The notes beneath the pieces were generated by a model. That model saw only the letters and a list, made by a program, of their open reading frames with translations, was not told the origin of the DNA and did no database searches. From a virus (taxonomy: Duplodnaviria > Heunggongvirae > Uroviricota > Caudoviricetes), in IMG/VR virus record IMGVR_UViG_2541047916_000002: a stretch of DNA of 24,000 bases. One strand, 5' to 3'. The translations under genes and the position numbers were made by a program. The stretch's first letter is position 1; the number at the start of each line of letters is the position of its first letter. Of this stretch, positions 5,303 through 24,000 are shown piece after piece.

Positions 5303-5531
5303 GGGTTTCGCAGCCCGGAAATGTACGAGGCGACACATGACGCGCCGAGCGTCTTTTTTTGTGCCGTTAGCCAGACTCACACTTTTTTCAGTGATGTGGT
5401 TATAATCCGCGTCGCTTGCAAAATTATGGTGGGCTGGACAGGGCAGCCGAAAGGCTGGCCGGTTTCCTTGTACGCCGGTACTGCGAACTCTGTTCAGTCC
5501 ACCACCAGCGAGTTTCGCAGCTCCGGTGGTG
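5303..5531 (+). promoter_or_regulatory. structured leader region: terminator, -10-like TTATAAT (5401-5407), GNRA-loop hairpin (5443-5456), three copies of a 16-nt motif (two direct, one inverted) and an 8-bp GC stem (5498-5505/5524-5531); possible P4-type RNA switch
   Basis: Motif GAGTTTCGCAGC(T)CCGG at 5303-5318 and 5509-5525; its near-complement CCGGTACTGCGAACTC at 5473-5488; all read directly. Confidence 0.3.
5339..5360 (+). terminator. intrinsic terminator-like hairpin GACGC-GCCGA-GCGTC followed by T7
   Basis: 5-bp GC stem plus seven T residues on the plus strand. Confidence 0.4.
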
Positions 5532-7580: not shown

Positions 7581-7944
7581 AAATGCAGAAATGGCGCTTA
7601 GCTCCGCAATCGGAGAGCAGGTGGCAAAGATTGCTGGTGCTGTGTGGATTCATAACCTTCATTCTACTGGTGAAGAGAAAATGGCAATTCAGACGCCAGA
7701 GGGACGCACCATTACTACATCTCTGAAGCCGTCAGATGTTTGTGATCTGATTTGCGCATTCATGTACCCAGCAATGAGGACTGCCCACGGCGATAAGTGG
7801 AAACTTGCGACAACCGCTGAATTTGATATGTGGCTAAACAATGATGGCATGCTGACTGATTACGGAATAACCAAGTGGCAGATGCTGGTTAGCCATATCG
7901 CAAACGCTATAGACCACGTGGGGTACGGTGATGCGAAACATTGA
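7573..7944 (+). CDS. hypothetical protein (123 aa)
   Basis: GGGAGG SD; overlaps the upstream stop. Confidence 0.5.
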   Translation: MRENAEMALSSAIGEQVAKIAGAVWIHNLHSTGEEKMAIQTPEGRTITTSLKPSDVCDLICAFMYPAMRTAHGDKWKLATTAEFDMWLNNDGMLTDYGITKWQMLVSHIANAIDHVGYGDAKH

Positions 7945-10423: not shown

Positions 10424-10488
10424 TATTAGACGTCAACTAGTTTTGCCGACTCGCGCCAACTATACTGGCCGCACCCTTCAGTGCGACA

Positions 10489-11244
10489 TCAAGTCGCGCT
10501 TGTTACTGCCTTCGCTGTCTTTTTCCTGTAGCTTTCACCTTTCAGTTCGAACATATATCCGTGATGGATCAGCCGGTCTGCCGCCGCCACCGCCATAGTC
10601 TCATCCACGAAGATGCTGCCCCACATGCTGAACGGATGGTTACTGGTTATCACCAGGCTCCCACGTTCATAGCGATGCGCTATTAACTCGAACAGTACTC
10701 CCGTTTCGGCGCTGTCGCGTTTGACATAGCCAAGATCATCCACCACTATCACCCGGTAGCGATCCAGTTTCAGTAGCAGCTCATTCAGTTTCAACTGCGC
10801 TCTGGCTTTACGTAGTTCCTGCAACAACTCTCCTGCGCTGTAGAACCGGGCCCGGTAGCCCTGGCCTACTACGCCATCCACGATCGCTGCCGCCAGATGG
10901 CTTTTCCCCAACCCGCTGGCTCCGAACAGCAGAACGTTTTCTCCTGCATCAACCCAGTCTGTCGTTTCACAGAGTTGCCGGAACTGAGCTCCATTCAGTT
11001 CCGGCACCTGACTGAAGTCGTATTCGCTTAGCGTTTTGGCAACTGGCAACCGGGCCTCCTTTTTATAACGACGCAGTTTTTCACTCTCGCGCCACAGGAG
11101 TTCTTCATTGCATAGCGTCAGAAGATAGCGCGATGGTGTCCAGCCTTCTGCCAGTGCTCGTTTTTCCAGAGCGTGCCATTCAGCTCCAACTCGTGTCAGG
11201 CGTAGTTTACGCAGGCTGCGTTCAAGGTGATGGATATTGCTCAC
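10489..11244 (-). CDS. istB: IS21-family ATP-binding helper IstB
   Basis: 251-aa ORF with Walker A GASGLGKSHLA; typical IstB size and position. Confidence 0.85.
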   Translation of the reverse strand: MSNIHHLERSLRKLRLTRVGAEWHALEKRALAEGWTPSRYLLTLCNEELLWRESEKLRRYKKEARLPVAKTLSEYDFSQVPELNGAQFRQLCETTDWVDAGENVLLFGASGLGKSHLAAAIVDGVVGQGYRARFYSAGELLQELRKARAQLKLNELLLKLDRYRVIVVDDLGYVKRDSAETGVLFELIAHRYERGSLVITSNHPFSMWGSIFVDETMAVAAADRLIHHGYMFELKGESYRKKTAKAVTSAT

Positions 11245-12740
11245 TGCGAACCTCCCTTGCCACGCAGTAGTTGCTCATAACTGCTCAGGTTATGCTGTTT
11301 CACATTGACTACCGGCAACGCCTTTTCCTTTATACCCAGGAAGCGCATCAGCCGGTGCAGATCCACGTTTCCCGGGGTATTCAGCATCTGCTCCATACCT
11401 TTTGCCACGACTGAGATATCGTCGTATCCTGCAGCCAGTTTCAGAGCATGTACCATCAGCCTGCCTGCCATGTCGGGTTCCAGATGATTACATAAGCGAC
11501 GCCACAGCCTCCGCCATTCATCGTCTGGCAGGATGTCATTTCTCAGCGTTGCATGGCAGAACGCACCGGGCTTTTTTGCCAGACTGTCGATCACATGTCG
11601 GAAGTCGATACGACGGGCCCGCGTCTTCCCTTTTTCTGGTCTGACACGTGGGCAGCTCATGACCTCGCTGCTGCCAACGTAACAGCTCAGACGATCGTCC
11701 CATAACCGGACCCGTAACAGTTGACCTACAAGCCGGGAAGGTACGCTGTAGACGACGTGCTTCACATTGATGGTACTGCTGCGGCTAACCCTCACAGTCA
11801 GCTCATCATAGTCAGCACTGCGACGAAGCGGCAGCGGTTTCAGATGAAGACGTTCTTCCTTGACCAGATCCTGATTGTTACGGTTGTGCCGCATAACCTG
11901 CTGAGTGATGAAGGCCTGATATTCTTCTATGGTGCTGAAGTCGTTACTGCCCCGCAGTATCAGCGCCTGACAGATACGCCTTTTCAGATGTCCGTGGGCA
12001 CTTTCAACCGAGCCATTTTCGTGGCCCCGACCGGCATTATTGTGTACGCCCTGCATTCCGTAGTGCTGACAGAGAGCAGCATAACGCTCAGTCAGCTCGC
12101 GGCGTCCATCTTCGCCCTGTTGTTTCCATGCTGCCCTCAGGCTGTCCGTTTTATGTTCTACCGGCACTCCGCCCAGTTGTCCGAGGGCTTCCTGCAGACC
12201 TTCAGCCAGAGCAGAGAAGCTCTCACCACCCAGCACAACCCGCATCCAGCTCCAGTGGCTCCATTCCAGACGGAAGTGATACAACTTATGCGCCAACAAC
12301 TTACCGGCGATGGTGACAACTACACCTTTCAGTTCAGTAAAGTCCGACAGACCTCGCAGACCGGGCTGATGTCGCTGGCGGAACATGACCTCCTGCTCTG
12401 CACCATACTGTAGCTTCCATTCGCGGACCCGCCGTTGCATTGTTCTTCGAAGGCTGTTGGGGTACTGGCCGGGATATTTATCCTGTAGCATCTCCAGCAG
12501 AGTTGTTGGTGTCAGAGCCGGCCTCTCTTTCAACAGAGGAACAAGCATGCTGTCCCACACAGCTTCCAGAGGATCTTTGCGTGTGCGCCAGTGCCGAACA
12601 CTGTTTTTTGCCCACTCTCCTTTTTCGATCCGACGACCAGAACGGACTGAGATACCAGCCTTCATGGCCGAGATATGCTGAGTTATACCTTTCTTACGCT
12701 GAGTCATATAGTAACTGACCTGAGAAGTATTGAGCGTCAC
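11241..12740 (-). CDS. istA: IS21-family transposase IstA
   Basis: 499-aa ORF with N-terminal HTH and a DDE-type core; 4-nt overlap with the downstream istB. Confidence 0.85.
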   Translation of the reverse strand: MTLNTSQVSYYMTQRKKGITQHISAMKAGISVRSGRRIEKGEWAKNSVRHWRTRKDPLEAVWDSMLVPLLKERPALTPTTLLEMLQDKYPGQYPNSLRRTMQRRVREWKLQYGAEQEVMFRQRHQPGLRGLSDFTELKGVVVTIAGKLLAHKLYHFRLEWSHWSWMRVVLGGESFSALAEGLQEALGQLGGVPVEHKTDSLRAAWKQQGEDGRRELTERYAALCQHYGMQGVHNNAGRGHENGSVESAHGHLKRRICQALILRGSNDFSTIEEYQAFITQQVMRHNRNNQDLVKEERLHLKPLPLRRSADYDELTVRVSRSSTINVKHVVYSVPSRLVGQLLRVRLWDDRLSCYVGSSEVMSCPRVRPEKGKTRARRIDFRHVIDSLAKKPGAFCHATLRNDILPDDEWRRLWRRLCNHLEPDMAGRLMVHALKLAAGYDDISVVAKGMEQMLNTPGNVDLHRLMRFLGIKEKALPVVNVKQHNLSSYEQLLRGKGGSQ

Positions 12741-12840
12741 GCCATTTCCTGTTGGATCATGTAAATGACACTCAGGTTACAAAACCGGCCAGAATAATCG
12801 GCGCCAGGCGGACTGAGTTATTGTCGTCTCATAGCCCATC

Positions 12841-13104
12841 AAAGATTTAGCCGGATACCGTCAGCGTGGAGAACATGACGAAAGCCCAATGATTTTCTAC
12901 ACATTCCCGGCCACATTTGAAAAGGAGATCGCATGTGGTTTCAACGCAAAACAGTTTGCTGAAGTGTTGAAAAAAGCCGGGATGCTAACCCCACCAAACA
13001 GCGGTCGTGGATACCAAAGAAAATCACCACGTATTCAGGGACGACAAATAAACGTTTATGTACTCAATTACCAGCCAGGAGATTATAACTCATCTGAAGA
13101 ATGA
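12841..13104 (+). pseudogene. C-terminal 87 codons of the IS-disrupted primase-helicase
   Basis: Open and in frame with the primase ORF across the restored junction (10423 joined to 12841); the ORF-track entry 12889-13104 is its ATG-started tail. Confidence 0.55.
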
Positions 13105-13129
13105 GCTTCTTCATGTGCGTAGAAAAGGT

Positions 13130-13240
13130 GTTGGTTCAGTTGGTTCAGTTGGTTCAATTTGTAAAGAGTATTGTTTTATAAGGATTTTATTCTTTTTATT
13201 GAACCAACACTGAACCAACAACACGGTATTTTGAACCAAC
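13130..13240. repeat. iteron cluster, putative island replication origin: 3x GTTGGTTCA, 43-bp AT-rich spacer, 3x TGAACCAAC
   Basis: Six 9-mers read directly, immediately downstream of the primase gene, as in P4/PICI-type ori arrangements. Confidence 0.55.
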
Positions 13241-13349
13241 ACAATGTGACTGAATTGATGCGCACAACACCTGGCTGGCATCAGAGAGTGTTTTACGAGA
13301 CTTTCGTAAAATCCTGTGTACAAGGGCGTGACGTTTTTGAAAGTGAGCA

Positions 13350-13366
13350 CTACGAAATTTTCGTAG
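13350..13366. promoter_or_regulatory. 17-bp palindrome CTACGAAATTTTCGTAG (putative protein-binding site)
   Basis: 8-bp arms around a central base; two related copies at 22149-22184. Confidence 0.3.
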
Positions 13367-13560
13367 TTCAAAAAACAGCCTCTGAGAAGTTGTTATGCCT
13401 GTTCAGCAAACCATCCGCATAGCTGATCGCGAATCAAATTACCAATGGAGCCAGAAGCAAGGGCAGAACTGAAAAGCGCCTGCCGTGAAGAGTAATGCGA
13501 CACCATAAATATAGTTTTTAGAGTCCATAAAAAACCTGTCAAAACCTGACACACAGAACG

Positions 13561-13593
13561 ATGCCACCAGCTACTGAGCGGTGGCATTTTTTT
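13561..13593 (+). terminator. intrinsic terminator (ATGCCACC-loop-GGTGGCAT followed by T7)
   Basis: 8-bp GC-rich stem plus a seven-T run; separates the ori region from the cargo module. Confidence 0.6.
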
Positions 13594-13688
13594 GTGCTAT
13601 TTGTTTCATATTTTGCAATTACGATGATGAATATTGCGATTTGTGAAACTATAATAACTGTTGTTTTATACAGTTCTAAGGGGGCGTT

Positions 13689-13850
13689 ATGGCTATTTCA
13701 GTAAAGCAGGTATTGATAAGTGAGAAGCAAATGGAAGCGATAAAGAAAATTCAGGAAGAGCAGCGTAAAAAATCAGGAATTGGAGTAGCGCCAACTCTGC
13801 ATGAAATTGCACGAGGGTTAATAGATAAGGCGCTGGCAGGCTGTATGTGA
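13689..13850 (+). CDS. small protein (53 aa), possibly a ribbon-helix-helix-type regulator
   Basis: Not in the ORF track (under 60 aa); AAGGGGG SD 5 nt upstream; TATAAT at 13650-13655; RHH assignment is a guess from size and predicted strand/helix pattern. Confidence 0.3.
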   Translation: MAISVKQVLISEKQMEAIKKIQEEQRKKSGIGVAPTLHEIARGLIDKALAGCM

Positions 13851-13866
13851 AAATGGATGGCATCGC

Positions 13867-14328
13867 ATGGAACTAAAATTTATTGATAACCCTGTGCGAT
13901 TACAGGCCTTTCTTAACGAGCCAGGCAATACCGAAAATATTGTTGAGCCGGGGCACACGTACTACATCAAGCCTGATGCGGTATATCTCGGCATCTACGA
14001 AGGATTAGTGCTGGCTGGCGTTCATGAAGTGCGTAACTTCTGGCATAGCGTTGTTGAATGCCATGCGGTGTACGACCCCGGATTCCGTGGTGAATATGCA
14101 CTGCAAGGGCATCGATTATTCTGCAAATGGCTTCTCGAAAACTCACCATTCCTTAACAGCATTACCATGGTTCCTGACACCACCAAATACGGACGGGCAA
14201 TTATCCGTTTGCTTGGCGCTACCCGTGTTGGTCACCTTGATGATGCTTATATCAGATGTGGTAAACCCGTCGGCGTAACGCTTTATCAGTTAACTCGGCA
14301 ACAATATAAGGAATTCAGCGAATGTTAA
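13867..14328 (+). CDS. hypothetical protein (153 aa), first gene of a virion-protein-like module (position equivalent to P22 gene 14)
   Basis: ORF translationally coupled to the next gene; no motif recognised. Confidence 0.45.
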   Translation: MELKFIDNPVRLQAFLNEPGNTENIVEPGHTYYIKPDAVYLGIYEGLVLAGVHEVRNFWHSVVECHAVYDPGFRGEYALQGHRLFCKWLLENSPFLNSITMVPDTTKYGRAIIRLLGATRVGHLDDAYIRCGKPVGVTLYQLTRQQYKEFSEC

Positions 14329-14975
14329 TTACCCACATAGCTCATAAACATCTCAATCGTGCCGTATACGAAAAAGGCGGTGATGGTGGTGCCTCTAAAG
14401 CTCAGGCGAAGGCCCAGCAGCAGGCAATTGATTTGCAGCGCGAGCAGTGGAATACGGTGATGAATAATCTCAAGCCGTATGCAGAAGTCGGATTGCCTGC
14501 TTTACAACAACTACAAGGACTGATGACTCTGGAAGGGCAGAATAAAGCCGCGAATGATTTCTTTGGTTCTGGTTTATATAAAACACAGGCAGATCAGGCC
14601 CGTTATCAGAACCTTGTCTCAGCAGAAGCTACCGGGGGGCTTGGCTCAACAGCTACCAGTAACCAGTTATCTTCCATTGCGCCCATGCTTTATAACAATT
14701 GGCTTAGTGGGCAAATGCAAAATTATGGAAACCTGCTAAATGTCGGGATGAATGCGGCATCAGGGCAGGCAACAGCAGGGCAACTCTTGCAGGGGCTTGG
14801 CGCTATTCGTGCAGGTCAGGCGCAGCAGCCATCCAGTCTTGCGCGTGGTATTGGTGGGGCGGCATCAGGCGCTTTAGCGGGTGCGCAACTTGGTTCCGTT
14901 GTTCCGGGTATAGGTAATGTCGCCGGGGCTATTGGTGGTGGGCTTATTGGTCTTGTTGGGGGGCTTGGATTCTAA
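14322..14975 (+). CDS. ejection-protein-like, P22 gp7-type (217 aa) with Gly-rich hydrophobic C-terminus
   Basis: Size, Q/A-rich composition, C-terminal glycine-zipper-like segment and gene order (217/473/701 aa versus P22 gp7/gp20/gp16 at roughly 229/471/609 aa); homology not verified. Confidence 0.45.
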   Translation: MLITHIAHKHLNRAVYEKGGDGGASKAQAKAQQQAIDLQREQWNTVMNNLKPYAEVGLPALQQLQGLMTLEGQNKAANDFFGSGLYKTQADQARYQNLVSAEATGGLGSTATSNQLSSIAPMLYNNWLSGQMQNYGNLLNVGMNAASGQATAGQLLQGLGAIRAGQAQQPSSLARGIGGAASGALAGAQLGSVVPGIGNVAGAIGGGLIGLVGGLGF

Positions 14976-16396
14976 TGGCGACATGGCAACTTGGCGGGCT
15001 GCCTAGCATGGCACCGCAAAATGATAATGCTCCTCGTTCTTCCGTTCCTCAGCCTGTGCAGTATCAGCAGCAGCCAAACGTAGGTTTAATGGCGCTACAG
15101 GGGCTAAGAGGCGTTGCTGAGATTAATCAGCAGGCACGTCAACAACAGCGTAAAGCAGAGTTTCAGAAAGCATATGCCGGGGCTTTTGAGTCTGGAGACA
15201 GAAACAAAATGCGCAGTCTTATTTCTGAGTATCCAGAAGAATTTGAAAGCGTTCAGAAAGGGATGGGCTTTATTGATGACGACCAGAGAAATTCTATTGG
15301 TCATCTTGCGACTAGTGCTCAAATCGCATCTTCGCTCGGAACTGGGGCATTTGGAAAATTCATAGCAGATAACGAAGATGAAATGCGTCGCTTGGGAATT
15401 TCTCCTGAGTCTGTTGCCGAAATGCATGTTAATGATCCACAGGGATTCCAGCGGCTTGCTGGTAGTATGGCACTGTTTTCTCTCGGTCATGAGAAGTATT
15501 TCGATATCAAAGATCAAATGGAAGGTCGGGATATTGAGCGTGGCAAGTTGGCAGAAACAATCCGCAGCAATCAGGCTGGCGAAGCACTTCAGGCGAGAGG
15601 GCAGGATATTAGCCGAGCAAATGCGTTAACGTCAGCATATGCACCAACAGCAGCAATGCAGAATTACAATCAGTACGCTCAAATGTTAAAGGCGGATCCA
15701 GAGGGGGCGGCGGCATTTGCGGCAGCGGCTGGAATTAATACAAACGCCAAAAAATTAATGAGTGTTAGAGAAAACGATGATGGCACTGTCACAAAATACT
15801 ACACAGACGGAAGTGAAGAGCAGGGAAAACTAAACCAGCCAATATCTGGAGATGGGTTTCGTCCAATAGCTTTGCCAACAGCCCAAAAGATCATGGAAAA
15901 GTCGCCAGAAGGGGCTAAAAAAGCTGCTGGATTTGCATACAGGGTTAGGGATGCTCTTGATTCAATAGATACACTGAAAGACCAGCTTAGCCCACAGCGA
16001 GTGGCGATCATTAATAATGCTTTGGGTAATGGGACGCTGGCTAACTTAACGCTCAGCCCAATAGAGCAGCAATACGTTGTTAATGCTAATGACGCAATAA
16101 TGGCAATACTCCGTCAGGAAACAGGGGCATCTATCCTACCAGCTGAAATGTCCAAATATTATCAAATGTATTTCCCTCAGCCTGGTGATTCCACAAAAAC
16201 CATTGATACCAAGCGCCGGAAGATGGAAAACCAGTTCAATTCGCTGAAAGCTGCTTCTGGTCGAGCTTATGATGCTTTGCGGGTTATTTCAGCAGTTGAC
16301 AGAGGAACTTCTTCTTCGTCGCAGACATTGCCGCAATCTGAGCAGGTATCACAGCCAGCAGCCAGCAGTAATTTTTCTTCACTATGGGGTGATTAA
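14975..16396 (+). CDS. ejection-protein-like, P22 gp20-type (473 aa)
   Basis: TAATG coupling to the upstream gene; Q/A-rich low-complexity protein of matching size and order. Confidence 0.45.
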   Translation: MATWQLGGLPSMAPQNDNAPRSSVPQPVQYQQQPNVGLMALQGLRGVAEINQQARQQQRKAEFQKAYAGAFESGDRNKMRSLISEYPEEFESVQKGMGFIDDDQRNSIGHLATSAQIASSLGTGAFGKFIADNEDEMRRLGISPESVAEMHVNDPQGFQRLAGSMALFSLGHEKYFDIKDQMEGRDIERGKLAETIRSNQAGEALQARGQDISRANALTSAYAPTAAMQNYNQYAQMLKADPEGAAAFAAAAGINTNAKKLMSVRENDDGTVTKYYTDGSEEQGKLNQPISGDGFRPIALPTAQKIMEKSPEGAKKAAGFAYRVRDALDSIDTLKDQLSPQRVAIINNALGNGTLANLTLSPIEQQYVVNANDAIMAILRQETGASILPAEMSKYYQMYFPQPGDSTKTIDTKRRKMENQFNSLKAASGRAYDALRVISAVDRGTSSSSQTLPQSEQVSQPAASSNFSSLWGD

Positions 16397-18501
16397 TGGC
16401 TAAAGCATGGAAAGATGTTATCGCTTCTCCACAGTATCAGGCGTTAGCACCAGAACAAAAAGCGCAGGCTCAAGAGCAATACTTCAATGAAGTCGTGGCC
16501 CCGCAAGCCGGAGAAAGTGTAGAGCAGGCTAAGCAGGCTTTTTATGCTGCCTATCCACTACCATCAACGAATGAAATAGACCGATCCCAATCAGCAACTC
16601 AAAATATTCAACATACATCATCTGATAATTCTCTTGCGTCAGGGTATGCAAAGTTAGCTACTCAGCAAAGAGAGGGGCTTGAGCGTTCAGCAGAACAGGG
16701 AGCCAGTCTTGGGGCTGCGATGCGCGATGCTATAACAGGCGAAAGCCGAATGACTCCAGAGATGGAGAGACTGCAAAATGTCGCCTCTGCCCCAGAATTG
16801 AACTCACTAAGCATGGATGCCCTAAAGGCTGGATGGTCTCAACTTTTCGGCTCTGACGCGTCTCAGGAAAAGATTCTTCAGGGAATGGGGGCGACATTAA
16901 GGCAGGATGAGAAGGGGAATACTATCGTTTCTCTGCCATCAGGTGATTATGCCCTGAACAAGCCGGGTTTATCACCGCAAGACCTGACTTCGTTTCTTGC
17001 TAATGCGTTGGCGTTTACACCAGCGGGCAGGGCTGGAACGGTGCTTGGTGCCATAGGAAAATCAGCAGCTACAGATTTAGCACTACAGGGAGCCACCAGC
17101 CTTGCTGGTGGAGAAGATATTGATCCGTTACAAACGGTAATTTCTGCTGGCATTGGTGGTATTGGTAAGGGGCTGGAAAATACAGCGAGTGCGGTTTCGA
17201 GGGCTGTTCGTGGTGATATGTCGCCTGAAGCAAAGGCTGCTGTCGACTTTGCATCGGAAAGAAATCTGCCGTTAATGACCAGTGACATGCTGAAAGATAA
17301 AACCTTTATGCAGAGTCAGGCTCAGACATTAGGCGAAAGAGTTCCTTTTTTTGGAACCGGTAAGAATCGGCTGAATCAACAACAAGCACGAGAAAATTTA
17401 GTCAGAACATTTAGCGATGGTCTGGGTGGCATTTCTGATAAACAGCTTTATGAATCTGCGACTAAAGGGCAACAAAAATTCATTGAGGCAGCAGGAAAGC
17501 GATATAACCGCATAATTGACGCTATGGGGGATACCCCTGTCGATCTCTCAAACACGGTAAAAGCTATCGACAATCAGATTGCCGTGTTAAGCCGCCCGGG
17601 CAAATCTCAGGATAGAGCCGCGGTAAAAGTCTTGCAGCAATTTAAAGACGATATCACCAGCGGACCAAATGACCTGCGTCTGGCGAGGGAAAACAGAACC
17701 GATCTTCGAAAGCGATTTATGGCGTCATCTGACACTGTTGATAAAGATACGCTCCAGAAAGCCAGCGATATTATCTACAAGGCATATACGGCGGATATGA
17801 AAAAAGCCGTAGCCAAAAATCTTGGAGCAGACGAAGCCATTAATATGGCAAGGGTTGATCGCTCATGGTCTAAATTCAATGACATGATGGGAAGAACGCG
17901 CGTTCAAAAGGCAATAGCCAGCGGCAAGGCCACGCCTGAGGATGTAACAAAACTCGTTTTTAGCCAAAGCCCATCAGAACGTTCTCAGCTTTACAGGCTT
18001 CTGGATGACAATGGTAGGCAAAACGCACGAGCGGCCATAGTTCAGAATGCTGTAGATAAGGCGACTGATCCGTCTGGAAATATCAGTGTTGAGAAGTTTA
18101 TTAATGCGTTACACCGGAACAGGAAGCAATCAGCAACTTTCTTTAAAGGCGTACATGGAAAGGAACTGGACGGCGTTATTAAATACCTCAACGATACAAG
18201 ACACGCGGCAAAAGCGAACGTTCAAAACTTAAATGGTCAGCAGCTTTATGGATTGTTAGTTGGTGGTGGCATCATAAACGCAGCAGTATTAGCGGGGATG
18301 CTAAAAACGGCTGCGTTTGTTGTTCCTGCTGCTGGTGCCGTAGGCGGAGCAGCGAAGGCATACGAAAGCCCTGTTATACGAAATGCCTTGTTACGTCTGG
18401 CAAATACGCCAAAAGGTAGCACAGCATATGACAGAGCGATCAGTACGGTCACACAATCGCTCACCAGAGTCGCACAGGCATCACAAAAAGAAGCTCAATA
18501 A
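16396..18501 (+). CDS. ejection-protein-like, P22 gp16-type (701 aa)
   Basis: TAATG coupling; hydrophobic Gly/Ala-rich C-terminal segment; position and size. Confidence 0.45.
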   Translation: MAKAWKDVIASPQYQALAPEQKAQAQEQYFNEVVAPQAGESVEQAKQAFYAAYPLPSTNEIDRSQSATQNIQHTSSDNSLASGYAKLATQQREGLERSAEQGASLGAAMRDAITGESRMTPEMERLQNVASAPELNSLSMDALKAGWSQLFGSDASQEKILQGMGATLRQDEKGNTIVSLPSGDYALNKPGLSPQDLTSFLANALAFTPAGRAGTVLGAIGKSAATDLALQGATSLAGGEDIDPLQTVISAGIGGIGKGLENTASAVSRAVRGDMSPEAKAAVDFASERNLPLMTSDMLKDKTFMQSQAQTLGERVPFFGTGKNRLNQQQARENLVRTFSDGLGGISDKQLYESATKGQQKFIEAAGKRYNRIIDAMGDTPVDLSNTVKAIDNQIAVLSRPGKSQDRAAVKVLQQFKDDITSGPNDLRLARENRTDLRKRFMASSDTVDKDTLQKASDIIYKAYTADMKKAVAKNLGADEAINMARVDRSWSKFNDMMGRTRVQKAIASGKATPEDVTKLVFSQSPSERSQLYRLLDDNGRQNARAAIVQNAVDKATDPSGNISVEKFINALHRNRKQSATFFKGVHGKELDGVIKYLNDTRHAAKANVQNLNGQQLYGLLVGGGIINAAVLAGMLKTAAFVVPAAGAVGGAAKAYESPVIRNALLRLANTPKGSTAYDRAISTVTQSLTRVAQASQKEAQ

Positions 18502-18519
18502 CTGGTTAGCCACGGATGG

Positions 18520-18939
18520 CTAATTTTTGTTCTTTGCTCTCATCCACAGGTAAAGAAGGGCAAGAACAAGACAAAAAACAGAGAATAGATAACCTACCTC
18601 ATATGATGCGCCAAAAAAATTAGCTATTGATACGGGCAAAAAAGCTGAAGCGATCAAAATTGAAAGGCAAAAAATAAGACCAGTAATATAGTTTATTAAA
18701 TTCTTAAATGAGAAACGTTTTGCTTGATTTATGGTCTTAGCGAACGATCGCTTAACGACGGATAAAAGCAAATAGATGGCGACAGTTGCTAATGCCCCTT
18801 TCCACCAGTCTGGATATAGTTTTGCGACAATCAGACCAAGGAAAACCATGATGACAGCCTGAGCATTCACACCAACCCTCCCTTTAGCGTTGTTTAGATT
18901 GGCAATCATCATATATCCAAGACATGGCATTTGGTACAT
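18520..18939 (-). CDS. small inner-membrane protein (about 139 aa, 4 predicted TM helices), in the position of a superinfection-exclusion gene (sieA-like by synteny only)
   Basis: Four hydrophobic helices in the translation; convergent with and 18 bp from the gp16-like gene; start uncertain (track ORF extends to 19107 with a TTG start). Confidence 0.45.
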   Translation of the reverse strand: MYQMPCLGYMMIANLNNAKGRVGVNAQAVIMVFLGLIVAKLYPDWWKGALATVAIYLLLSVVKRSFAKTINQAKRFSFKNLINYITGLIFCLSILIASAFLPVSIANFFGASYEVGYLFSVFCLVLALLYLWMRAKNKN

Positions 18940-19701
18940 AGCTTGGGTCGGGATTTCAAATCCGCCCCCGTTGATGGGGTCGTTACAGTACGCGCATATC
19001 CGCTTTATGTGAAACAGGAAGATTTTTCTGATATCACTGCCACAGCAAAACACCAATTTCGAGACAAGTACGCGCGCGAGGGGTATCAGTTGCAAAAAAT
19101 TTTGCAACTACGTCCGACCAATACACACACGATGGCGGGGGATACCATAAAACTGTTCTCTACATGAGACAGAGTGGTGGTGATGTGTTGATTATCGGCC
19201 TATATGCGCACAGGACGCGCTATGACAATGTTTTATGCGGGTACACCAATCACATGTATCTGGTGTGATAAATCGCGTTACATGACCTTTCATGTTGTGC
19301 TGGTGGTTATCACGACGTTCTGAATCTGGCTTTTGTCTGATATTTTGCGACAAGTACGCGCGCGTAACATCGAAATTATCGGATGGCGTATGTTGCTGGC
19401 AAGATAAAGTCGGCGTAATACAAAGGCGTTACTTGATAGCAGCAAGATTACAACAATGGTTGTTGAATTTGAGCGATGTAAGGAATTGATTTAGGGAGGC
19501 GCTGATGGCTAAAAAGTTCCACTACCAGCGGATGAATGCGCCAGCGATGGCCGTTTGGTAGTAAAAGAGGAGCCATTCCTCAATCAGTTGAATACATTAT
19601 GCCAACTAAATGGGTGGGGGCACTGTGTGGGTATTCAGCGGTGACGGTATTTTTTAAGCCAAGGACTATCCGTAGCAGGGGGACTCATTTTGAAATATTT
19701 A

Positions 19702-20139
19702 TCATATGTAACTTATTATTTTAGATAAAGATTTCCAGTTAAAGAAAAAAGTTATCATTGATATAATCAAATATGCCCCTGCGAGTAGCAGGGCATAATA
19801 ATCCAGAGGCAGATTGCTGACAACAGGGGCAAACATCGAGATCATTGCTAATAGGCAGGCTGTGATCAGCGTAGTTCCTGTATCAAAAAGCCCCTCAATA
19901 ATGCCTTTTAGTACTCCGTTACTTTTTAGAGCGCCTACAATTCCCTTTGAACTATCAAAGCTACTTAGCATGGTGACTGATGCCAAAACAAAACCAAAGA
20001 GAACTCCAGAAATAGTTGAAAGAGCACCAGCAGCCGAAATGACAGCATTGTGATCTAGGTCGTGTAATAAATGGGCACCAGCAATAGCCATAGCTAGAGC
20101 AAACAATGACTTGGCAGCAAACAATTTCCGAGAACTCAT
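19702..20139 (-). CDS. 4-TM membrane protein (145 aa), second gene of a two-gene AT-rich operon
   Basis: Four hydrophobic segments; 12-nt gap from the upstream 361-aa gene; long ORF in AT-rich DNA. Confidence 0.6.
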   Translation of the reverse strand: MSSRKLFAAKSLFALAMAIAGAHLLHDLDHNAVISAAGALSTISGVLFGFVLASVTMLSSFDSSKGIVGALKSNGVLKGIIEGLFDTGTTLITACLLAMISMFAPVVSNLPLDYYALLLAGAYLIISMITFFFNWKSLSKIISYI

Positions 20140-20151
20140 AATGTATTCCTG

Positions 20152-21237
20152 TTACGTTTGACTAACCAAATAGTACTGGGTTAGATACCTAAGGTTGTCA
20201 TTCTTTGCTTGTAGCATAGCATTTTTAACGTCAGTATCGGTCGGATACCCATCTGCTTGGATAGGCACCATCTTCTTTACCGTAAGAACTTCGTCTACAA
20301 GACTTTTCTTCTTTTTATCGCCCTGAGCAACAACATTTGCTTTCTCAAAAGTTAAACGACCATCACCACCAGGGAACTTTTCTAGCATCTCCTTAAGGCT
20401 TTTTTTAACGTCATCCTCAAGCCATCCCTTTGCTTTTCTTTTTAATGGAGAATGTCCGCGTAACGAAATAGTCAGGTGGCTTGAACTGGTGCCTCTGATC
20501 ATCTCAATCATCTGATTCGCGAACATTCCATCGAGTTGATACTGTGCGGCATTGAAGTTTCTTGGGATGGCCACAGAAATCTCGCAGCTTCTTAGATTGG
20601 ATCCAGTTTCGAGTAGTTCTTTGATGCTTTCTTCTTTCCAAATGGCTTCAAAAGAAACAGGGACTCCGCGATCACTGGAGTTGAAAAGAAGGAAGGCTAA
20701 GTCACTATGGCGTGGACCTAAATGATTTAAAGACAATACTAGAATGTCTGTCTGAGGATAATAAATAAAGTATGTACGTTCTGAAAGAGTCTTTGCCCCG
20801 GCTAGAGGGATTTTCTCTTCCACCCACTCTTTATCTGTAATATATGCCAGTGTTGCGCTTTTTCTTCTTCGAGACATGAATCCGAAGTAGGAGCCATCCT
20901 CGGGTGAGATGTCTAGAAAATGAATTTTAAGTTCTCTTTCACCAAAGTCTGCATAGTGGGTCATCTTGAAGTCTTTAGAACACCGATCATACAGATTTTT
21001 AAAGGCCTCTGCGGTTAACCCCTTGTTACTAGTGCGAATATTCTCAGAGCTTGTGTAAAAGCCCACCCTTACAGATTTCAAACTTTGATCTTTTGGTGCC
21101 ACAGTCATTTGAGCTCCATTGTACTCTGCGATAGTTTTTGCACACCTTGAAATCAAAATCTCCATGTCAGTCACGAGAAAATAACTATGGATGAAACCCA
21201 TCAAAGGCATTGAATACAGGTGGCTTTTGAGAATCAT
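20152..21237 (-). CDS. hypothetical soluble protein (361 aa), no recognisable domain; first gene of the candidate defense operon
   Basis: Uninterrupted 361-codon ORF in AT-rich sequence where chance ORFs of this length are very unlikely; operon partner is a 4-TM protein. Confidence 0.6.
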   Translation of the reverse strand: MILKSHLYSMPLMGFIHSYFLVTDMEILISRCAKTIAEYNGAQMTVAPKDQSLKSVRVGFYTSSENIRTSNKGLTAEAFKNLYDRCSKDFKMTHYADFGERELKIHFLDISPEDGSYFGFMSRRRKSATLAYITDKEWVEEKIPLAGAKTLSERTYFIYYPQTDILVLSLNHLGPRHSDLAFLLFNSSDRGVPVSFEAIWKEESIKELLETGSNLRSCEISVAIPRNFNAAQYQLDGMFANQMIEMIRGTSSSHLTISLRGHSPLKRKAKGWLEDDVKKSLKEMLEKFPGGDGRLTFEKANVVAQGDKKKKSLVDEVLTVKKMVPIQADGYPTDTDVKNAMLQAKNDNLRYLTQYYLVSQT

Positions 21238-21588
21238 CCTAACCTGGTGACGGTGGTTCGCATATCCTGATGGATGATCAGTGATTAATCAATGCGCCAA
21301 GCAGATGTGTCTATGTGTTTGTTAATCATTGCATGACAGTAGATCGACATGGGAGATCACGTTATATAGTTGAATTGTTAGGATATCCATGCACCGATCA
21401 ACTGACTAGGCTGATGTGCTTTTTAGCAGGTGCCATATAGTAGTTAGGCGGTTCTGTGAAATGATTACTGTTCCAGCATAACTGCGGCATAAAGCGGTGC
21501 TATATAAGCTATTTGCTGGCGGATTTAGTCTTCACCGTTCATATATGTAGTGACTATTTGACAGAGTGTTAGTTCACGGACACTTTTT

Positions 21589-21688
21589 GTTGGTTCAAAA
21601 TGAGTTGATGTTGGTTCAATATTTTAGAAAAAACACAATAAAAACAACGCTCTTTACAAATTGAACCAACTGAACCAACTGAACCAAC
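21589..21688. repeat. second iteron cluster (2x GTTGGTTCA, AT-rich spacer, 3x TGAACCAAC), inverted relative to 13130-13240
   Basis: Reverse complement of 21646-21691 is identical to 13124-13169 (46 bp: AAAAGGTGTTGGTTCAGTTGGTTCAGTTGGTTCAATTTGTAAAGAG), then about 80 percent similar. Confidence 0.5.
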
Positions 21689-21724
21689 ACCTTTTTGCTT
21701 ATCTATATAATCTGAGAGGCAGAA

Positions 21725-22012
21725 ATGATAAGGGACAGGAAAGCTGAAGAGCTGGAGTCAAAAGGGCTATACCGGAGAGCTGCCGCACGATGGGCAGAAG
21801 TCATGATGCTGGCAAATGGCGATAAAGAACGTGAACATGCAGCAAACAGGCGCTCTGAATGTATCCGTAAGGCGGCACGCCCACCAGCAACTACAGACAG
21901 ATTCGGAGATTTAAGACAGGCAGTTAAGCGAACTCATTCGGCTCTTGGTATGGATGAGGAAGCGAGAGGGTACTTCAGGCGTTATCGCGATAAAGATTGC
22001 CAGAGACAGTAA
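21725..22012 (+). CDS. PerC-family transcriptional activator-like protein (95 aa)
   Basis: Motif AEELESKGLYRRAAARWAEVM...REHAANRRSECI resembles the PerC family pattern; GAGAGG SD. Confidence 0.55.
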   Translation: MIRDRKAEELESKGLYRRAAARWAEVMMLANGDKEREHAANRRSECIRKAARPPATTDRFGDLRQAVKRTHSALGMDEEARGYFRRYRDKDCQRQ

Positions 22013-22059
22013 TGCTCTCTCTGTTTTGGCAAATTACCCTTCACTTTGAAGGGAGCGGA

Positions 22060-22370
22060 GCTATAAAAATGGTTTTAGGTACATTCCTCAAATTGAGGTT
22101 TCCGAAAATATCAGCGGGTTAGCGATTAATCTGGCGAGTAATTAAACTGCGAAAATTTCGTAGGGGGTTACGAAAATTTCGTAGGTCTACTCATGGTTTA
22201 GGCTTACTTTCCCGACATCCCCCAATGGGGGGTTCGAAATAATCAATGGGTTAGGCTTACCTCCCCCCATTTCCTGCATTGCAGGTTTTCGAAAGAATCA
22301 ATGGGTTAGGTCATCGTGCAAATTTGCACTCTGCCAGCCAACGCAATTTCTCGTTGGCGGAAATATCAGG
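22060..22370. repeat. ORF-free array of direct repeats near the island right end: ATGG(G)TT(T)AGG x4, TTCGAAA-nAATCAATGGGTTAGG x2, ACGAAAATTTCGTAGG x2, GAAATATCAG x2
   Basis: Repeats read directly; location fits the P arm of attR, where recombination directionality factor and host-factor sites would lie. Confidence 0.35.
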
Positions 22371-22541
22371 TATTTACTGAACGAACGGTCTACCCGCCTG
22401 TTCAACTACCAGTTGTACATGGCTGCTTTATGTGCAAATGGTGGTGAGAGAAAATTATTTGGGGGTACTTTTGGGGGTATCTCCAAAGATGTAATGGGGA
22501 AATGTCTTTATATATCAATGTATTTTTATTGTTTGTTTTGT

Positions 22542-22551
22542 TCCTATTATC
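22542..22551. other. right-end copy of the att core segment (TCCTATTATC, identical to tRNA positions 1428-1437)
   Basis: 10-bp direct repeat of the tRNA 3' region, followed by sequence homologous to the int-upstream region at 1446-1609. Confidence 0.4.
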
Positions 22552-22701
22552 AACGTCTCCCCAAGTCTACTCAAGTATTTAAAAACCTCTTATAATCAGT
22601 ATATTAATGCCCCTTTTAGTCTTTTGACGTCTATTTAAGTACCCCAAACTCTACAAGCAATTGAGGGGATTTGCTGTTCAGTTTAGTGGAGATACCCCCA
22701 A

Positions 22702-23040
22702 GTGAAACTCAATGCCCGTCAAATAGACACTGCCAAGCCAAAAGAGAAGGCTTACAAGTTGGCTGATGGTGGTGGTCTGTACCTCCTGGTAAAACCTGGT
22801 GGAGGAGAATATTGGCGTCTCAAGTATCGTGTAGCTGGTAAAGAGAAGCTGTTAGCACTAGGTGTGTATCCTGAGGTCACCTTAGCTGATGCTCCTGCAA
22901 AACTTGAAGAAGCTAAAAGAGGTATCTCTGGGGGAATCGATCTGATGGAAGTGAAGCGAGAGGAAAAGATTGCCCGGGAAACGCAGTTAAACAACACCTT
23001 CAAAGATATTGCCCTTGAGTGGCACAGTAACAAATTATAA
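22702..23040 (+). pseudogene. truncated second copy of the P4-type integrase (112 codons, about 90 percent identical to the N-terminus of the 1610 gene), remnant of a tandem island
   Basis: Near-identical N-terminal 112 aa and upstream region; homology ends abruptly at 23037 and the sequence becomes AT-rich. Confidence 0.7.
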
Positions 23041-23278
23041 TCACAATAATAGTGTATATAATTATACATTGTATGCTTGGTAATCATATAATGATAAAAG
23101 CTTCCGATAATCAGTATGAGATTTGTCCTTAAACTCCTGGACATGCTTTTCTAAATCTTCCAATGGTATATGTCCATTTATACAAATAAAATTCTAGTGA
23201 TAAATACCTTCAGGTATGATTAGACAACATCTTTATTCGATGGGGGTTAATCTATATTTGATATCTTTCTTTTAAATA

Positions 23279-23320
23279 ACAACGCCATTAAAAACGCTTT
23301 GTTTAATGACGTTTTTTTTA
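23279..23320 (+). terminator. possible intrinsic terminator (AACGCCATTAAA-loop-TTTAATGACGTT followed by T8)
   Basis: 12-bp stem with one mismatch followed by a T-run. Confidence 0.3.
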
Positions 23321-23475
23321 TTGTTTCCTATATAAAGCCTAACCAGCATAAACATTGGTGGCTCTTATGCTCATTGTAATTAAATGAGAGTGTGATTAAT
23401 GTCTTTATATATTCTGGTAGTTATTCTCTCCAGAAGAATACATTGTAAGAAGATGACTGTTAGTATGTTTTAACA

Positions 23476-24000
23476 TCAATTAACATTAAGGTTTGATAAT
23501 AATTTTTTGTTGGCGAGTTCAAATGTTTTCATTTCATCATCTGATAGCCCGCTCCAGATTTTCTTTAGCATTACATTTTGAGTGTTTATTAGTTTTTGAG
23601 CAAGTGTAACTCCGTCAGGGGTTAAGCAAATACTTTTGCTTCGACGATCGTTTTTATTATTAATTCTTTTGGCAATATTCTTTTTTTCTAATTTGTCTAT
23701 GATGTGTGTGATGTTTGTTTTGGAGAATTGTAACTCCTTGTAAATATCAGAAGGGGACTGACAATAATCATCAGACATATATAATGAAACTAACACCATA
23801 AATGTTGAGGTGTTTATTCTATACTCGCTCAATTCATTTTCTATAATACTCTGGATTTTGTCATTTACTCTAATATATAAGTGTATTAACAGACTCTCCT
23901 GAGCCGGGTATGCCGGATTTTTGATTTTTTTGTAGTTTGTTATAGTTTTTAATAAATCTATATTATTCATAATTCCACCACACGGCAAAAGAAAACTCAT
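23476..24000 (-). CDS. MarR-family winged-helix transcriptional regulator (PapX/SlyA-like), start at or near the window edge
   Basis: Winged-HTH region (SPSDIYKELQFSKTNITHIIDKLEKKNIAKRINNKNDRRSKSICLTPDG); AT-rich gene; the ORF reaches the window end, true start may be the internal Met near 23970. Confidence 0.55.
   Translation of the reverse strand: MSFLLPCGGIMNNIDLLKTITNYKKIKNPAYPAQESLLIHLYIRVNDKIQSIIENELSEYRINTSTFMVLVSLYMSDDYCQSPSDIYKELQFSKTNITHIIDKLEKKNIAKRINNKNDRRSKSICLTPDGVTLAQKLINTQNVMLKKIWSGLSDDEMKTFELANKKLLSNLNVN

What the first reader, a model, noticed from the sequence alone, without database searches (positions are those of the whole stretch)
13350..22184. Palindromic motif (T)ACGAAA-A/T-TTTCGTAG at the ori-proximal region and twice near the island right end
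CTACGAAATTTTCGTAG (13350-13366) and two tandem copies of ACGAAAATTTCGTAGG (22149-22164, 22168-22184) share an inverted-repeat core. Recurrence at two functionally distinct control regions (just after the origin, and in the putative attR arm) suggests a common DNA-binding protein, with AlpA, the PerC-like protein or a host factor as candidates.
Basis: seen in the sequence. Interest (0 to 1): 0.4.

Follow-up and report, generated by a model that had tools for sequence, protein, structure and literature searches.

The report
Orphan phage antirepressor operator sites
The repeated palindrome is real, but it is not an AlpA or PerC site: it is a DNA element normally hidden inside phage antirepressor (Roi/Ant-type) genes, and this satellite island carries gene-less copies of it, apparently as part of a landing pad for helper-phage proteins and IHF.

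Summary
There are four sites, not three, arranged as two pairs: 13294-13308 and 13349-13367, then 22147-22163 and 22168-22184.

The window is an E. coli thrW phage-inducible chromosomal island (PICI). It carries int, alpA, a primase, an iteron ori, captured P22-like ejection genes and perC.

The 17-bp palindrome CTACGAAAWTTTCGTAG is at chance frequency in bacterial genomes. In viral contigs I estimate it at 15-fold or more above chance. There it mostly lies in frame (Y-E-I/N-F-V) inside the N-domain of KilAC antirepressor-like genes, which are annotated Roi in Stx phages. Its codons never vary, while flanking codons do.

The ori-proximal copy 13349-13367 sits in a frameshifted fragment of such a gene. 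The island has no intact copy.

The right-end pair belongs to a roughly 300-bp array. Four [short palindrome + IHF consensus] modules surround it, and three of them match the in-gene segments of different HK022-type roi alleles.

My best reading is orphan operators for helper-phage Roi/Ant-type proteins acting with IHF. This is an inference; no binding was shown. AlpA and PerC are unlikely binders. The right-end copies degenerate or are missing in some related islands.

The parts
13294..13308 (.). Palindrome copy 1, TACGAGACTTTCGTA, inside TTTTACGAGACTTTCGTAAAA (13291-13311). It has one mismatch from the perfect 21-bp palindrome TTTTACGAAACTTTCGTAAAA found in frame (F-Y-E-T-F-V-K) in one allele group of phage Ant1-N-type genes.
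   Evidence: allele comparison (L183 group)
13349..13367 (.). Palindrome copy 2, ACTACGAAATTTTCGTAGT.
   Evidence: I18
13337..13438 (+). Frameshifted fragment of an Ant1-N-type (KilAC antirepressor/'Roi'-like) gene. It is 76% identical over 112 nt to intact phage genes. It reads ESEHYEIFVVQK...VVMPVQQTIRIADRESN against EGEHYEIFVVQK...VVMSIKQALRVAARESK. The window has no intact homologue.
22147..22163 (.). Palindrome copy 3, CTGCGAAAATTTCGTAG. Position 3 is G instead of A.
   Evidence: variants in related islands
22168..22184 (.). Palindrome copy 4, TTACGAAAATTTCGTAG, 21 bp after copy 3.
22086..22121 (+). Array module M1: CCTCAAATTGAGG, then the linker TTTCCGAAAA, then the IHF consensus TATCAGCGGGTTA. 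It matches 33 of 42 positions of the in-gene segment of roi allele t1 (L411).
22218..22253 (+). Array module M2: CCCCCAATGGGGG, a linker, then the IHF consensus AATCAATGGGTTA. It corresponds to roi allele t2 (L384, CCCCCAATGGTGG). The non-coding island copy is the more perfect palindrome.
22273..22308 (+). Array module M3: CCTGCATTGCAGG, the linker TTTTCGAAAG, then the IHF consensus AATCAATGGGTTA. It matches 36 of 42 positions of roi allele t3 (L378) and 29 of 42 of HK022 roi.
22316..22329 (.). Perfect palindrome GTGCAAATTTGCAC. Among enterobacterial elements in the viral collection it is seen only at this position in PICI arrays.
   Evidence: (I5)
22338..22376 (+). Array module M4: the inverted repeat CCAACG...CGTTGG, then GGAAA, then the IHF consensus TATCAGGTATTTA.
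13128..13242 (.). Context: the island ori. GTTGGTTCA x3, an AT-rich spacer, then inverted TGAACCAAC x3, directly after the primase stop (13104).
22542..22551 (+). Context: the attR core TCCTATTATC, repeating tRNA-Thr bases 1428-1437. The integrase arm-type repeats TGGGGGTA lie at 22459-22485, and at 1560-1610 next to int.

Best explanation
The motif is a cis-acting DNA element whose normal home is inside phage genes. There, C-TAC-GAA-AWT-TTC-GTA-G encodes Y-E-I/N-F-V in the N-terminal domain of KilAC-type antirepressor-like proteins. These belong to the Bro network and are annotated Roi in Stx phages.

I propose it is the symmetric operator of the dimeric protein encoded by the gene that contains it. 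The precedent is HK022 Roi, which is reported to bind within its own gene next to an IHF site.

The island has no such gene, so its four copies are orphan sites.
- Copy 13349-13367 lies in a decayed fragment of such a gene. Copy 13294-13308, 57 bp upstream, resembles a different allele of the same element. Both may be relics or retained sites.
- The right-end pair is phased 21 bp apart. It is embedded in an array of [short palindrome + IHF site] modules that copy the in-gene sites of several different roi alleles.

The array would therefore be a multi-specificity docking platform. Roi/Ant-type proteins made early by an infecting or induced helper phage would assemble on it together with host IHF, next to attR.

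Shown:
- sequence, distribution, DNA-level constraint, and homology of the island sites to in-gene sites.

Inferred:
- which protein binds, and what binding does. Helper sensing, excision or replication control, transcriptional roadblock and decoy are all open.
For: 1. Enrichment.
- I expect about 8 by chance. The collection size was calibrated from a control pattern.
- Bacterial genomes give 100 matches in 596 Gb, which is roughly chance. Only 3 of those lie in Ant1-N-type genes.

2. Coding context.
- Most viral matches are in frame in proteins with a Pfam ANT/KilAC C-domain, in the PHROG 'anti-repressor' families. They are homologous to Stx-phage Roi and to the P1/P7 Ant1 N-domain.

3. DNA-level selection.
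- I used 32 distinct gene versions found by peptide pattern rather than by DNA motif. In these, TAC, GAA, TTC and GTA are each 32/32, and ATT is 27/27 where the residue is Ile.
- Flanking invariant residues use 2-4 synonymous codons.
- The radical Ile/Asn/Thr change falls exactly on the free centre base of the palindrome.
- A subfamily encoding YTKSV has CTACAC-AAAAA-GTGTAG instead. Symmetry is kept through two double changes.

4. Orphan copies elsewhere.
- In P22-like phages the palindrome, with up to about 48 nt of the same gene fragment, lies just downstream of ant.

5. The island.
- 13337-13438 is a frameshifted fragment of such a gene.
- No intact homologue exists in the window.

6. The array.
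- Modules M1-M3 match in-gene segments of different roi alleles, 33/42 and 36/42 for M1 and M3. Nothing reaches 60% in shuffles.
- The roi alleles differ precisely in the putative recognition-helix region and in the palindrome.
- At least 10 different perfect palindromes occupy the same module slot.
- M2 is a better palindrome than its coding counterpart.
- 4 of the window's 8 IHF-consensus hits lie in 22109-22376, all on one strand.
- The array sits at the int-distal end of islands using at least four different integration sites.

7. The protein.
- The N-domain model is confident (pLDDT about 90). Its topology is helix, helix, beta-hairpin, helix.

8. Accessible papers call Roi a DNA-binding protein (PMC4587872, PMC3430580).
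Against: - No binding data exist for this palindrome.
- The key precedent is Clerget & Boccard 1996, PMID 8763934: Roi binds within its own gene beside an IHF site. I recall this from the abstract and could not read the paper here.
- HK022 Roi has a different N-domain (Rha type), and its gene lacks the 17-bp palindrome.
- hhalign finds no homology between the two N-domain types.
- At the PICI right end the palindrome is not strictly conserved. Variants are CTACG (perfect), CTGCG, CTGCGAAAATGTCGTAG, or no palindrome at all.
- The ori-proximal copies could simply be debris of a dead gene. Close relatives are too similar to test selection.
- P1 Ant1/2, a family member, lacks the palindrome.
- The biological output of the array is unknown.
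Confidence: 0.45

Rival explanations
1. Non-functional debris. All island copies are leftovers of Bro-network (Roi/Ant) gene fragments acquired by recombination with phages. The palindrome survives only because it was the most conserved stretch at the time of capture.
For: - 13337-13438 is a frameshifted gene fragment.
- Right-end copies carry 1-2 mismatches in many islands and are absent from L004.
- GN-PICIs are known to exchange genes with prophages and to be rich in Bro-network genes (PMC10111431).
- Many truncated homologues of the gene exist in enterobacterial genomes.
Against: - The right-end flanks show no coding homology beyond a few bases.
- Four to six fragments of about 40 nt, each exactly the palindrome+IHF segment of a different allele, in a fixed order and orientation, are hard to produce by decay.
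- M2 is more symmetric than its coding counterpart.
- At least 10 perfect alternative palindromes occupy the same slot.
- The pair is phased at 21 bp.
- The array is conserved at the int-distal end of islands with different integrases.
Confidence: 0.2
2. Nucleic-acid hairpins rather than protein sites. The palindromes would act in RNA or single-stranded DNA as attenuators or weak terminators, RNase processing sites, or priming signals. They would sit inside roi/ant mRNAs and at the end of the island's long rightward operon.
For: - Arms change by paired substitutions while symmetry is kept.
- The Rha-type modules are followed by T-rich linkers (GGTTTTCG).
- All modules share the orientation of island transcription.
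- No other terminator is predicted after perC.
- The two tandem copies can also pair with each other, at -10.7 kcal/mol.
Against: - The hairpins are short and weak, -3.4 to -6.1 kcal/mol with DNA parameters. Their stems are AT-rich and they lack proper U-tracts.
- None passes the terminator scan.
- Symmetric double changes are equally expected for a dimeric protein whose specificity has changed.
- The tight, conserved linkage to IHF consensus sites is a double-stranded-DNA feature. It is even imposed on the coding sequence (I-N-N-L-G).
- No Rfam family matches.
Confidence: 0.15
3. The sites bind an island-encoded regulator (AlpA, PerC, or a Bro-zone protein such as AntA or Ash) or a host transcription factor, and coordinate the ori and attR regions.
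For: - The pairs lie near the ori and near attR.
- AlpA-family proteins act as excisionases and regulators (PMC10111431).
- AntA and Ash are Bro-network proteins with DNA-binding-type domains.
- The binder was not identified here.
Against: - Only 10 of 120 motif-bearing viral loci carry AlpA or PerC, and 6 and 9 carry AntA and Ash homologues.
- There is no copy in the alpA promoter region.
- The motif is found in lambdoid, P22-like and Klebsiella phages that have none of these genes.
- It is at chance frequency in host genomes, so no host regulon uses it.
- It lies about 275 bp outside the integrase arm repeats.
- It occurs with unrelated integrases.
Confidence: 0.07
4. Replication or recombination accessory sites. 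The palindromes and IHF modules would be part of the island's origin architecture, since each of the two iteron clusters is followed by them. Alternatively they would be hot spots for the domain and allele swapping typical of Bro-network genes.
For: - A second iteron cluster (21588-21690) lies upstream of perC and the array. This mirrors ori (13128-13242) followed by the first pair.
- From general knowledge: origins such as lambda ori lie inside the initiator's own gene and use IHF-type bending, and P4 uses ori plus a distant crr.
- The roi alleles show a swapped cassette bounded by conserved flanks.
Against: - Distances to the iterons are very different, 52 and 109 bp against about 460 bp.
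- cf-PICIs with unrelated iterons carry the same array.
- The palindrome lies in the middle of the variable cassette, not at its borders.
Confidence: 0.1

Closest known systems
HK022 Roi and its intragenic binding site linked to an IHF site (Clerget & Boccard 1996, J Bacteriol 178:4077, PMID 8763934; recalled from the abstract, paper not readable here)
   Same: - A Bro-network protein with a KilAC C-domain whose gene carries a short palindrome and an IHF consensus in frame.
- HK022 roi contains CTGCATTGCAG, 12 nt of spacer, then AATCAATGATTTA.
- Island modules M1-M3 are homologous to this segment of roi alleles.
   Different: - The 17-bp palindrome belongs to a different N-domain type (Ant1-like). 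No homology to the Rha-type domain was detected, and the palindrome is absent from HK022 roi.
- In the island the sites have no accompanying gene.
- Several allelic versions are lined up in one non-coding array.
Gram-negative PICIs, including EcCICFT073 and cf-PICIs (PMC6092414, PMC6739421, PMC10111431)
   Same: - int and alpA, a Bro zone with C4/isrK RNAs, a primase with an iteron ori, captured late genes, perC cargo, and tRNA-flanking att repeats.
- The same right-end array is present in cf-PICI-like elements.
   Different: - There is no lambda-type cosN.
- No terminase or rpp-type gene was recognised among the ORFs scanned.
- The late zone consists of P22-like ejection-protein genes.
- The papers I read and text-searched do not mention the right-end array or the palindrome.
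Satellite cis-sites that respond to helper proteins, for example P4 late promoters activated by P2 Ogr, and satellite cos/pac sites (general knowledge)
   Same: A satellite carries DNA sites recognised by proteins that only the helper phage supplies. This ties satellite activity to the helper's life cycle.
   Different: - Here the candidate ligands are early, antirepressor-like Bro-network proteins.
- The sites are copies of in-gene operators.
- Several specificities are combined, and the output is unknown.
Immunity-type repressor/operator specificity cassettes of lambdoid phages (general knowledge)
   Same: Alleles differ in a recognition-helix region and in the cognate symmetric DNA site, and are bounded by conserved flanks.
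   Different: - Here the site lies inside the coding sequence of the same protein, only a few codons from the putative recognition helix.
- Protein and site changes are therefore physically coupled.

Membership tests
Roi-type intragenic operator with linked IHF site | The site lies inside the coding sequence of the Bro-network (Rha/Ant-N + KilAC) gene whose product binds it | tested here: not met
   This is met for the motif in phage genes. It is not met in the window, which has no intact gene. Copy 13349-13367 is in a frameshifted fragment, and copies 22147-22184 are non-coding. The island sites therefore work like, or derive from, such operators but are orphan copies.
Roi-type intragenic operator with linked IHF site | Close linkage to an IHF consensus (WATCARNNNNTTR) | tested here: met
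   There are four consensus hits within 22109-22376, against 2.3 expected in the whole 24 kb. The nearest (22109-22121) ends 25 bp before palindrome copy 3. There is no IHF consensus next to the ori-proximal pair.
Roi-type intragenic operator with linked IHF site | Demonstrated binding by the cognate protein, stabilised by IHF | not testable with these tools
   This needs EMSA, footprinting or ChIP. The HK022 precedent is cited from memory (paper not held).
Gram-negative PICI | Integrase plus AlpA at one end, co-oriented with most genes | tested here: met
   int is at 1610-2824 and alpA at 3252-3455.
Gram-negative PICI | Primase/replicase followed by an iteron origin | tested here: met
   A TOPRIM/DUF927 primase spans 7928-13104, split here by an IS21-family element. 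Iterons lie at 13128-13242.
Gram-negative PICI | Flanking att repeats at a specific site, and a size of about 10-20 kb | tested here: met
   tRNA-Thr is at 1369-1444. TCCTATTATC is repeated at 1428-1437 and 22542-22551. The island is about 21.1 kb with the IS and about 18.7 kb without it.
Gram-negative PICI | Induction and transfer by a helper phage | not testable with these tools
The captured P22-like gp14/7/20/16 genes suggest a P22-like helper.
Integrase arm-type or Xis/AlpA sites of attR | Sites specific to one integrase/att system and placed within the arm next to the core | tested here: not met
   The same element occurs in islands at four different integration sites and in phages. It lies about 275 bp outside the TGGGGGTA arm repeats and 358 bp from the core.
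Intrinsic (Rho-independent) terminator | GC-rich stem followed by a T-run | tested here: not met
   The scan finds no terminator-like site in 21600-22700, and none at the palindromes in 13000-13950. Hairpin energies are only -3.4 to -6.1 kcal/mol.
Lambda-type cos site | cosN-like GGGCGGCGACCT | tested here: not met
   There is no match with up to 2 mismatches near either pair. Three scattered hits are at chance level.
Host transcription-factor regulon site | The motif recurs at many chromosomal promoters of the host | tested here: not met
   There are 100 exact matches in 596 Gb covering 185,579 species, which is about chance. None of the 80 rows listed is Escherichia, Salmonella or Klebsiella. 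Only 3 of the 100 lie in the phage gene family.
Known RNA family (Rfam) | Covariance-model match at or near the gathering score | tested here: not met
   The only hit is a chance-level one (ES036, 16 bits against a threshold of 37.6, E = 3.6) at 22153-22188.

The most novel reading that the evidence does not exclude
Satellite islands of enterobacteria carry, next to attR, a modular barcode of orphan operators. Each is copied from the in-gene autoregulatory site of a different allele of helper-phage Roi/Ant (Bro-network) proteins, and each is paired with an IHF site. One island can thereby detect or exploit many different helpers. In the phages the operator is written inside the coding sequence next to the recognition helix. 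Protein specificity and DNA site therefore co-evolve as a single overlapping cassette, and DNA symmetry dictates amino-acid changes (I/N/T at the centre base, YEIFV versus YTKSV, PQIEV versus PPMVV versus PALQV).
Probability: 0.3. Interest if true: 0.8.

Novelty: new variant of a known kind. Interest (0 to 1): 0.55.

Why it matters
- How Gram-negative PICIs sense their helper phages is not explained in the PICI papers I read and searched here. An array of helper-protein docking sites at the island end would give a concrete and testable cis element, along with candidate ligands.
- The phage side is also of interest. It is a clear case of DNA-level selection overriding codon choice, and even amino-acid choice, inside a protein-coding gene. 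It may also explain the allelic specificity cassettes in the poorly understood Roi/Rha/Ant 'Bro network' proteins.
- Practically, the palindrome and the modules are compact sequence signatures. They could be used to find PICI right ends and to type roi/ant alleles in Stx and other lambdoid prophages.

Tried and rejected
- Literature search for the exact sequence returned only unrelated hits.
- The 1996 Roi paper is not held, and no open paper describes the Roi site.
- The motif is absent from HK022 roi and from P1 ant1/kilA with up to 3 mismatches, so the palindrome is not a universal feature of the family.
- Rfam gives nothing for either region.
- The lambda cosN idea for the right end was rejected. 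The cf-PICI preprint gives no cos location.
- Pfam on the putative 54-aa and 83-aa ORFs over the first pair gives nothing.
- The island's AntA shows no BLASTP similarity to Roi.
- hhalign finds no homology between the two N-domain types.
- Phylogenetic footprinting of the ori-proximal pair failed for lack of divergence among the relatives in hand. One alignment used wrong L093 coordinates and was redone.
- Testing co-occurrence of array module types with roi alleles in the same genomes was not possible. The fetched locus sets shared no genome identifiers.
- From memory, I compared the motif with the consensus sites of common E. coli regulators (PurR, ArgR, Lrp, Fis, NarL, AllR/IclR and others). 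None fits. This was not a tool test.

Full report
**What the window is**

The window matches E. coli ABU 83972 (NC_017631.1) at 100% over 13100-13900 and 99.3% over 21700-22700. The gene order is as follows.
- proA, then tRNA-Thr (1369-1444).
- A P4-type integrase (1610-2824) and alpA (3252-3455).
- A 'Bro zone': antA, DUF4222 and ash, with C4 and isrK RNA matches.
- A TOPRIM/DUF927 primase ending at 13104.
- An origin made of GTTGGTTCA iterons in inverted sets (13128-13242).
- Captured P22-like ejection-protein genes gp14, gp7, gp20 and gp16 (13867-18501).
- Unknown cargo on the minus strand.
- perC (21725-22012).
- About 530 bp of non-coding DNA.
- The attR core TCCTATTATC (22542-22551).
- The remnant of a second island: a truncated int, marR and vat.

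This is the four-zone organisation described for Gram-negative phage-inducible chromosomal islands, or PICIs (PMC10111431). Here the primase is split by an IS21-family element that ABU 83972 lacks.

**The observation**

- The first tandem copy starts with G, so the 17-mer 22147-22163 is CTGCGAAAATTTCGTAG.
- The second copy is TTACGAAAATTTCGTAG at 22168-22184.
- The two are 21 bp apart.

Two of the four are exact matches to 12 specified bases. I calculate about 0.0014 expected in 24 kb, and all four fall into two tight pairs, so this is not chance.

**Where else the motif occurs**

A scan of one genome for each of 185,579 species found 100 exact copies of CTACGAAAWTTTCGTAG. For 596 Gb that is about the number I calculate by chance, roughly 70. 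Only 3 of them lie in the gene family described below. None of the 80 listed rows is Escherichia, Salmonella or Klebsiella. The motif is therefore not a host regulon site.

I expect about 8, using a collection size calibrated from the control pattern.

The viral contexts fall into four groups.
- In frame inside genes, as C-TAC-GAA-AWT-TTC-GTA-G, encoding Y-E-I/N-F-V.
- At the right end of PICI-like elements.
- Just downstream of P22-type ant genes.
- A few other intergenic places.

**The gene that contains it**

The proteins have an unassigned N-domain and a Pfam ANT/KilAC C-domain. They hit the PHROG 'anti-repressor' families. By tblastn they match proteins annotated Roi or anti-repressor in Stx and other phages, and the N-domain of P1/P7 Ant1/Ant2.

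An AlphaFold model of a homologue is confident for the N-domain (pLDDT about 90). The topology is helix, helix, beta-hairpin, helix, helix. YEIFVV is the first strand of the hairpin.

Fold searches give only weak support for a DNA-binding fold.
- Foldseek finds nothing significant.

**The element is under DNA-level selection**

I collected relatives by degenerate peptide patterns, not by the DNA motif. Among the 32 distinct DNA versions that encode Y-E-x-F-V:
- TAC, GAA, TTC and GTA are each used 32/32, and ATT 27/27 where the residue is Ile.
- Neighbouring invariant residues use two to four synonymous codons.
- The same amino acids elsewhere in the same genes use other codons: Glu as GAA or GAG, Phe mostly as TTT, Val mostly as GTC.

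The only variable residue of the motif (Ile, Asn or Thr) is encoded by the free centre base of the palindrome. One allele group extends the symmetry to TTTTACGAAA-C-TTTCGTAAAA. Another, encoding YTKSV, has CTACAC-AAAAA-GTGTAG, where symmetry is kept through two double changes. P1 Ant1/2 lacks the palindrome, so it is a feature of part of the family only.

**The ori-proximal pair**

Window 13337-13438 is 76% identical over 112 nt to these genes and is frameshifted. The first site, 13291-13311, resembles the FYETFVK allele. An HMM of the N-domain finds nothing else in the window.

The 13349-13367 copy therefore sits in debris of a Bro-network gene, with the 13294-13308 copy beside it resembling a different allele. 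Whether they are still used cannot be decided. Relatives in hand are 94-100% identical, and one of them has a further mismatch in site 1.

**The right-end pair is part of an array**

The pair is flanked by four modules: M1 (22086-22121), M2 (22218-22253), M3 (22273-22308) and M4 (22338-22376). Each has the form [short palindrome, then a (T/C)CGAAA-type linker, then WATCARNNNNTTR]. A perfect palindrome, GTGCAAATTTGCAC, lies at 22316-22329.

Four of the eight IHF-consensus hits in the whole window lie in this 270 bp, all on the + strand. The expectation is 2.3 for the whole 24 kb.

HK022 roi contains, in frame, CTGCATTGCAG, 12 nt, then AATCAATGATTTA. I collected HK022-type roi genes. The alleles are near-identical except for a cassette that covers the putative recognition helix and this palindrome. 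The palindromes are CTGCATTGCAG, CCCCCAATGGTGG, CCTGCATTGCAGG, CCTCAAATTGAGG and CCTCCAATGGAGG.

The island modules correspond to these alleles.
- M1 matches allele t1 at 33 of 42 positions.
- M3 matches allele t3 at 36 of 42 positions.
- M2 corresponds to allele t2 and is the more perfect palindrome of the two.
- No stretch in ten shuffled windows reaches 60% identity.

Across loci, at least ten different perfect palindromes occupy the same module slot. The array lies at the int-distal end of elements at the phoQ, thiM, dinD-yicG and thrW sites.

In an unbiased sample of such arrays the 17-bp palindrome is perfect in about a third. In the rest it has one or two mismatches, or is missing.

**Interpretation**

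The sites are best read as operators of helper-phage Roi/Ant-type proteins. The Roi-type modules would be assisted by IHF. The island copies are orphans, because no such gene is present.

The precedent is HK022 Roi binding within its own gene next to an IHF site. This is from my memory of the abstract of Clerget & Boccard 1996. The paper could not be read here. Accessible papers only call Roi a DNA-binding protein (PMC3430580, PMC4587872).

- AlpA or PerC homologues occur in only 10 of the 120 motif-bearing viral loci, whereas Ant/Roi-type genes occur in 85.
- The alpA promoter region has no copy.
- The host genome does not use the motif.

**Rival readings**

- Pure debris. This is supported by the pseudogene and by degenerate copies. 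The ordered multi-allele array argues against it.
- RNA or single-stranded-DNA hairpins. Paired substitutions fit this reading, but the hairpins are weak (-3.4 to -6.1 kcal/mol). They fail the terminator scan and are tied to IHF sites, which is a duplex-DNA feature.
- Accessory sites for replication or recombination. A second iteron cluster at 21588-21690 precedes perC and the array.

**What is not known**

No binding was shown, and the identity of the binder is inferred. The output of the array is open. Helper sensing, excision or replication control, roadblock and decoy are all possible.

**Novelty**

I found no description of the palindrome. The PICI papers I read do not mention the array.

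I rate the finding a new variant of a known kind. The known kind is helper-responsive cis sites in satellites and Roi-type intragenic operators.

Noticed in passing
window 21588-21690: There is a second iteron cluster just upstream of perC: GTTGGTTCA x2, an AT-rich spacer, then TGAACCAAC x3. It is 78% identical over about 126 nt, in inverted orientation, to the ori at 13123-13248. A homologous perC island (L004 3574-3683) has it too. It may be a P4-style crr-like second replication site, or a primase-controlled perC promoter.
   Followed up: partly
window about 10430-12850 (istB 10489-11244 and istA 11241-12740, both minus strand): An IS21-family element of about 2.4 kb splits the island primase gene (7928-13104). 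ABU 83972 (L001) has the gene intact. This copy of the island is probably unable to replicate on its own.
   Followed up: partly
window 5282-5359 and 5422-5509: Rfam matches to isrK (69 bits) and to the C4 antisense RNA (81 bits) lie inside the ash-family ORF. This is the P4/P1-type immunity RNA arrangement described for PICI Bro zones.
   Followed up: no
window 13867-18501: The island's late zone consists of P22-like ejection-protein genes (gp14/DUF2824, gp7, gp20, gp16) rather than capsid or packaging genes. RefSeq marks the gp16 homologue as incomplete in ABU 83972. This suggests a P22-like helper and an unusual kind of piracy or interference.
   Followed up: no
window 22316-22329: The perfect palindrome GTGCAAATTTGCAC has a centre that varies between AAATTT and AATTTT among relatives. 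In the viral collection it appears, among enterobacterial elements, only at this fixed position in PICI right-end arrays. It was never seen inside a gene. It may be the site of yet another protein.
   Followed up: partly
HK022-type roi genes, e.g. L362, L378, L384, L411, L218 (about 100 nt within the N-domain coding region): The roi alleles are almost identical except for a cassette covering the putative recognition helix and the in-frame palindrome. This looks like an immunity-type specificity cassette written inside one coding sequence.
   Followed up: partly
window 18520-21237 (minus strand), compared with L004 2033-3441: The ORFs between the late zone and perC have no family match. At the same position a homologous island carries an Abi-family gene. 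This looks like a variable, possibly defence-related, cargo slot.
   Followed up: no
window 22552-24000: Directly after attR comes a second, degenerate thrW island. It has its own arm repeats, a truncated integrase (22702-23040) and marR. In ABU 83972 the vat autotransporter toxin gene follows.
   Followed up: no
L052 4207-4384 and L031 5560-5590 (P22-like phages): The palindrome, with up to about 48 nt of the same gene fragment, sits between the ant gene and the next late gene. In L052 it is flanked by 22-bp direct repeats (ATCGCCGCAGCGTGGCTACGGT).
   Followed up: partly
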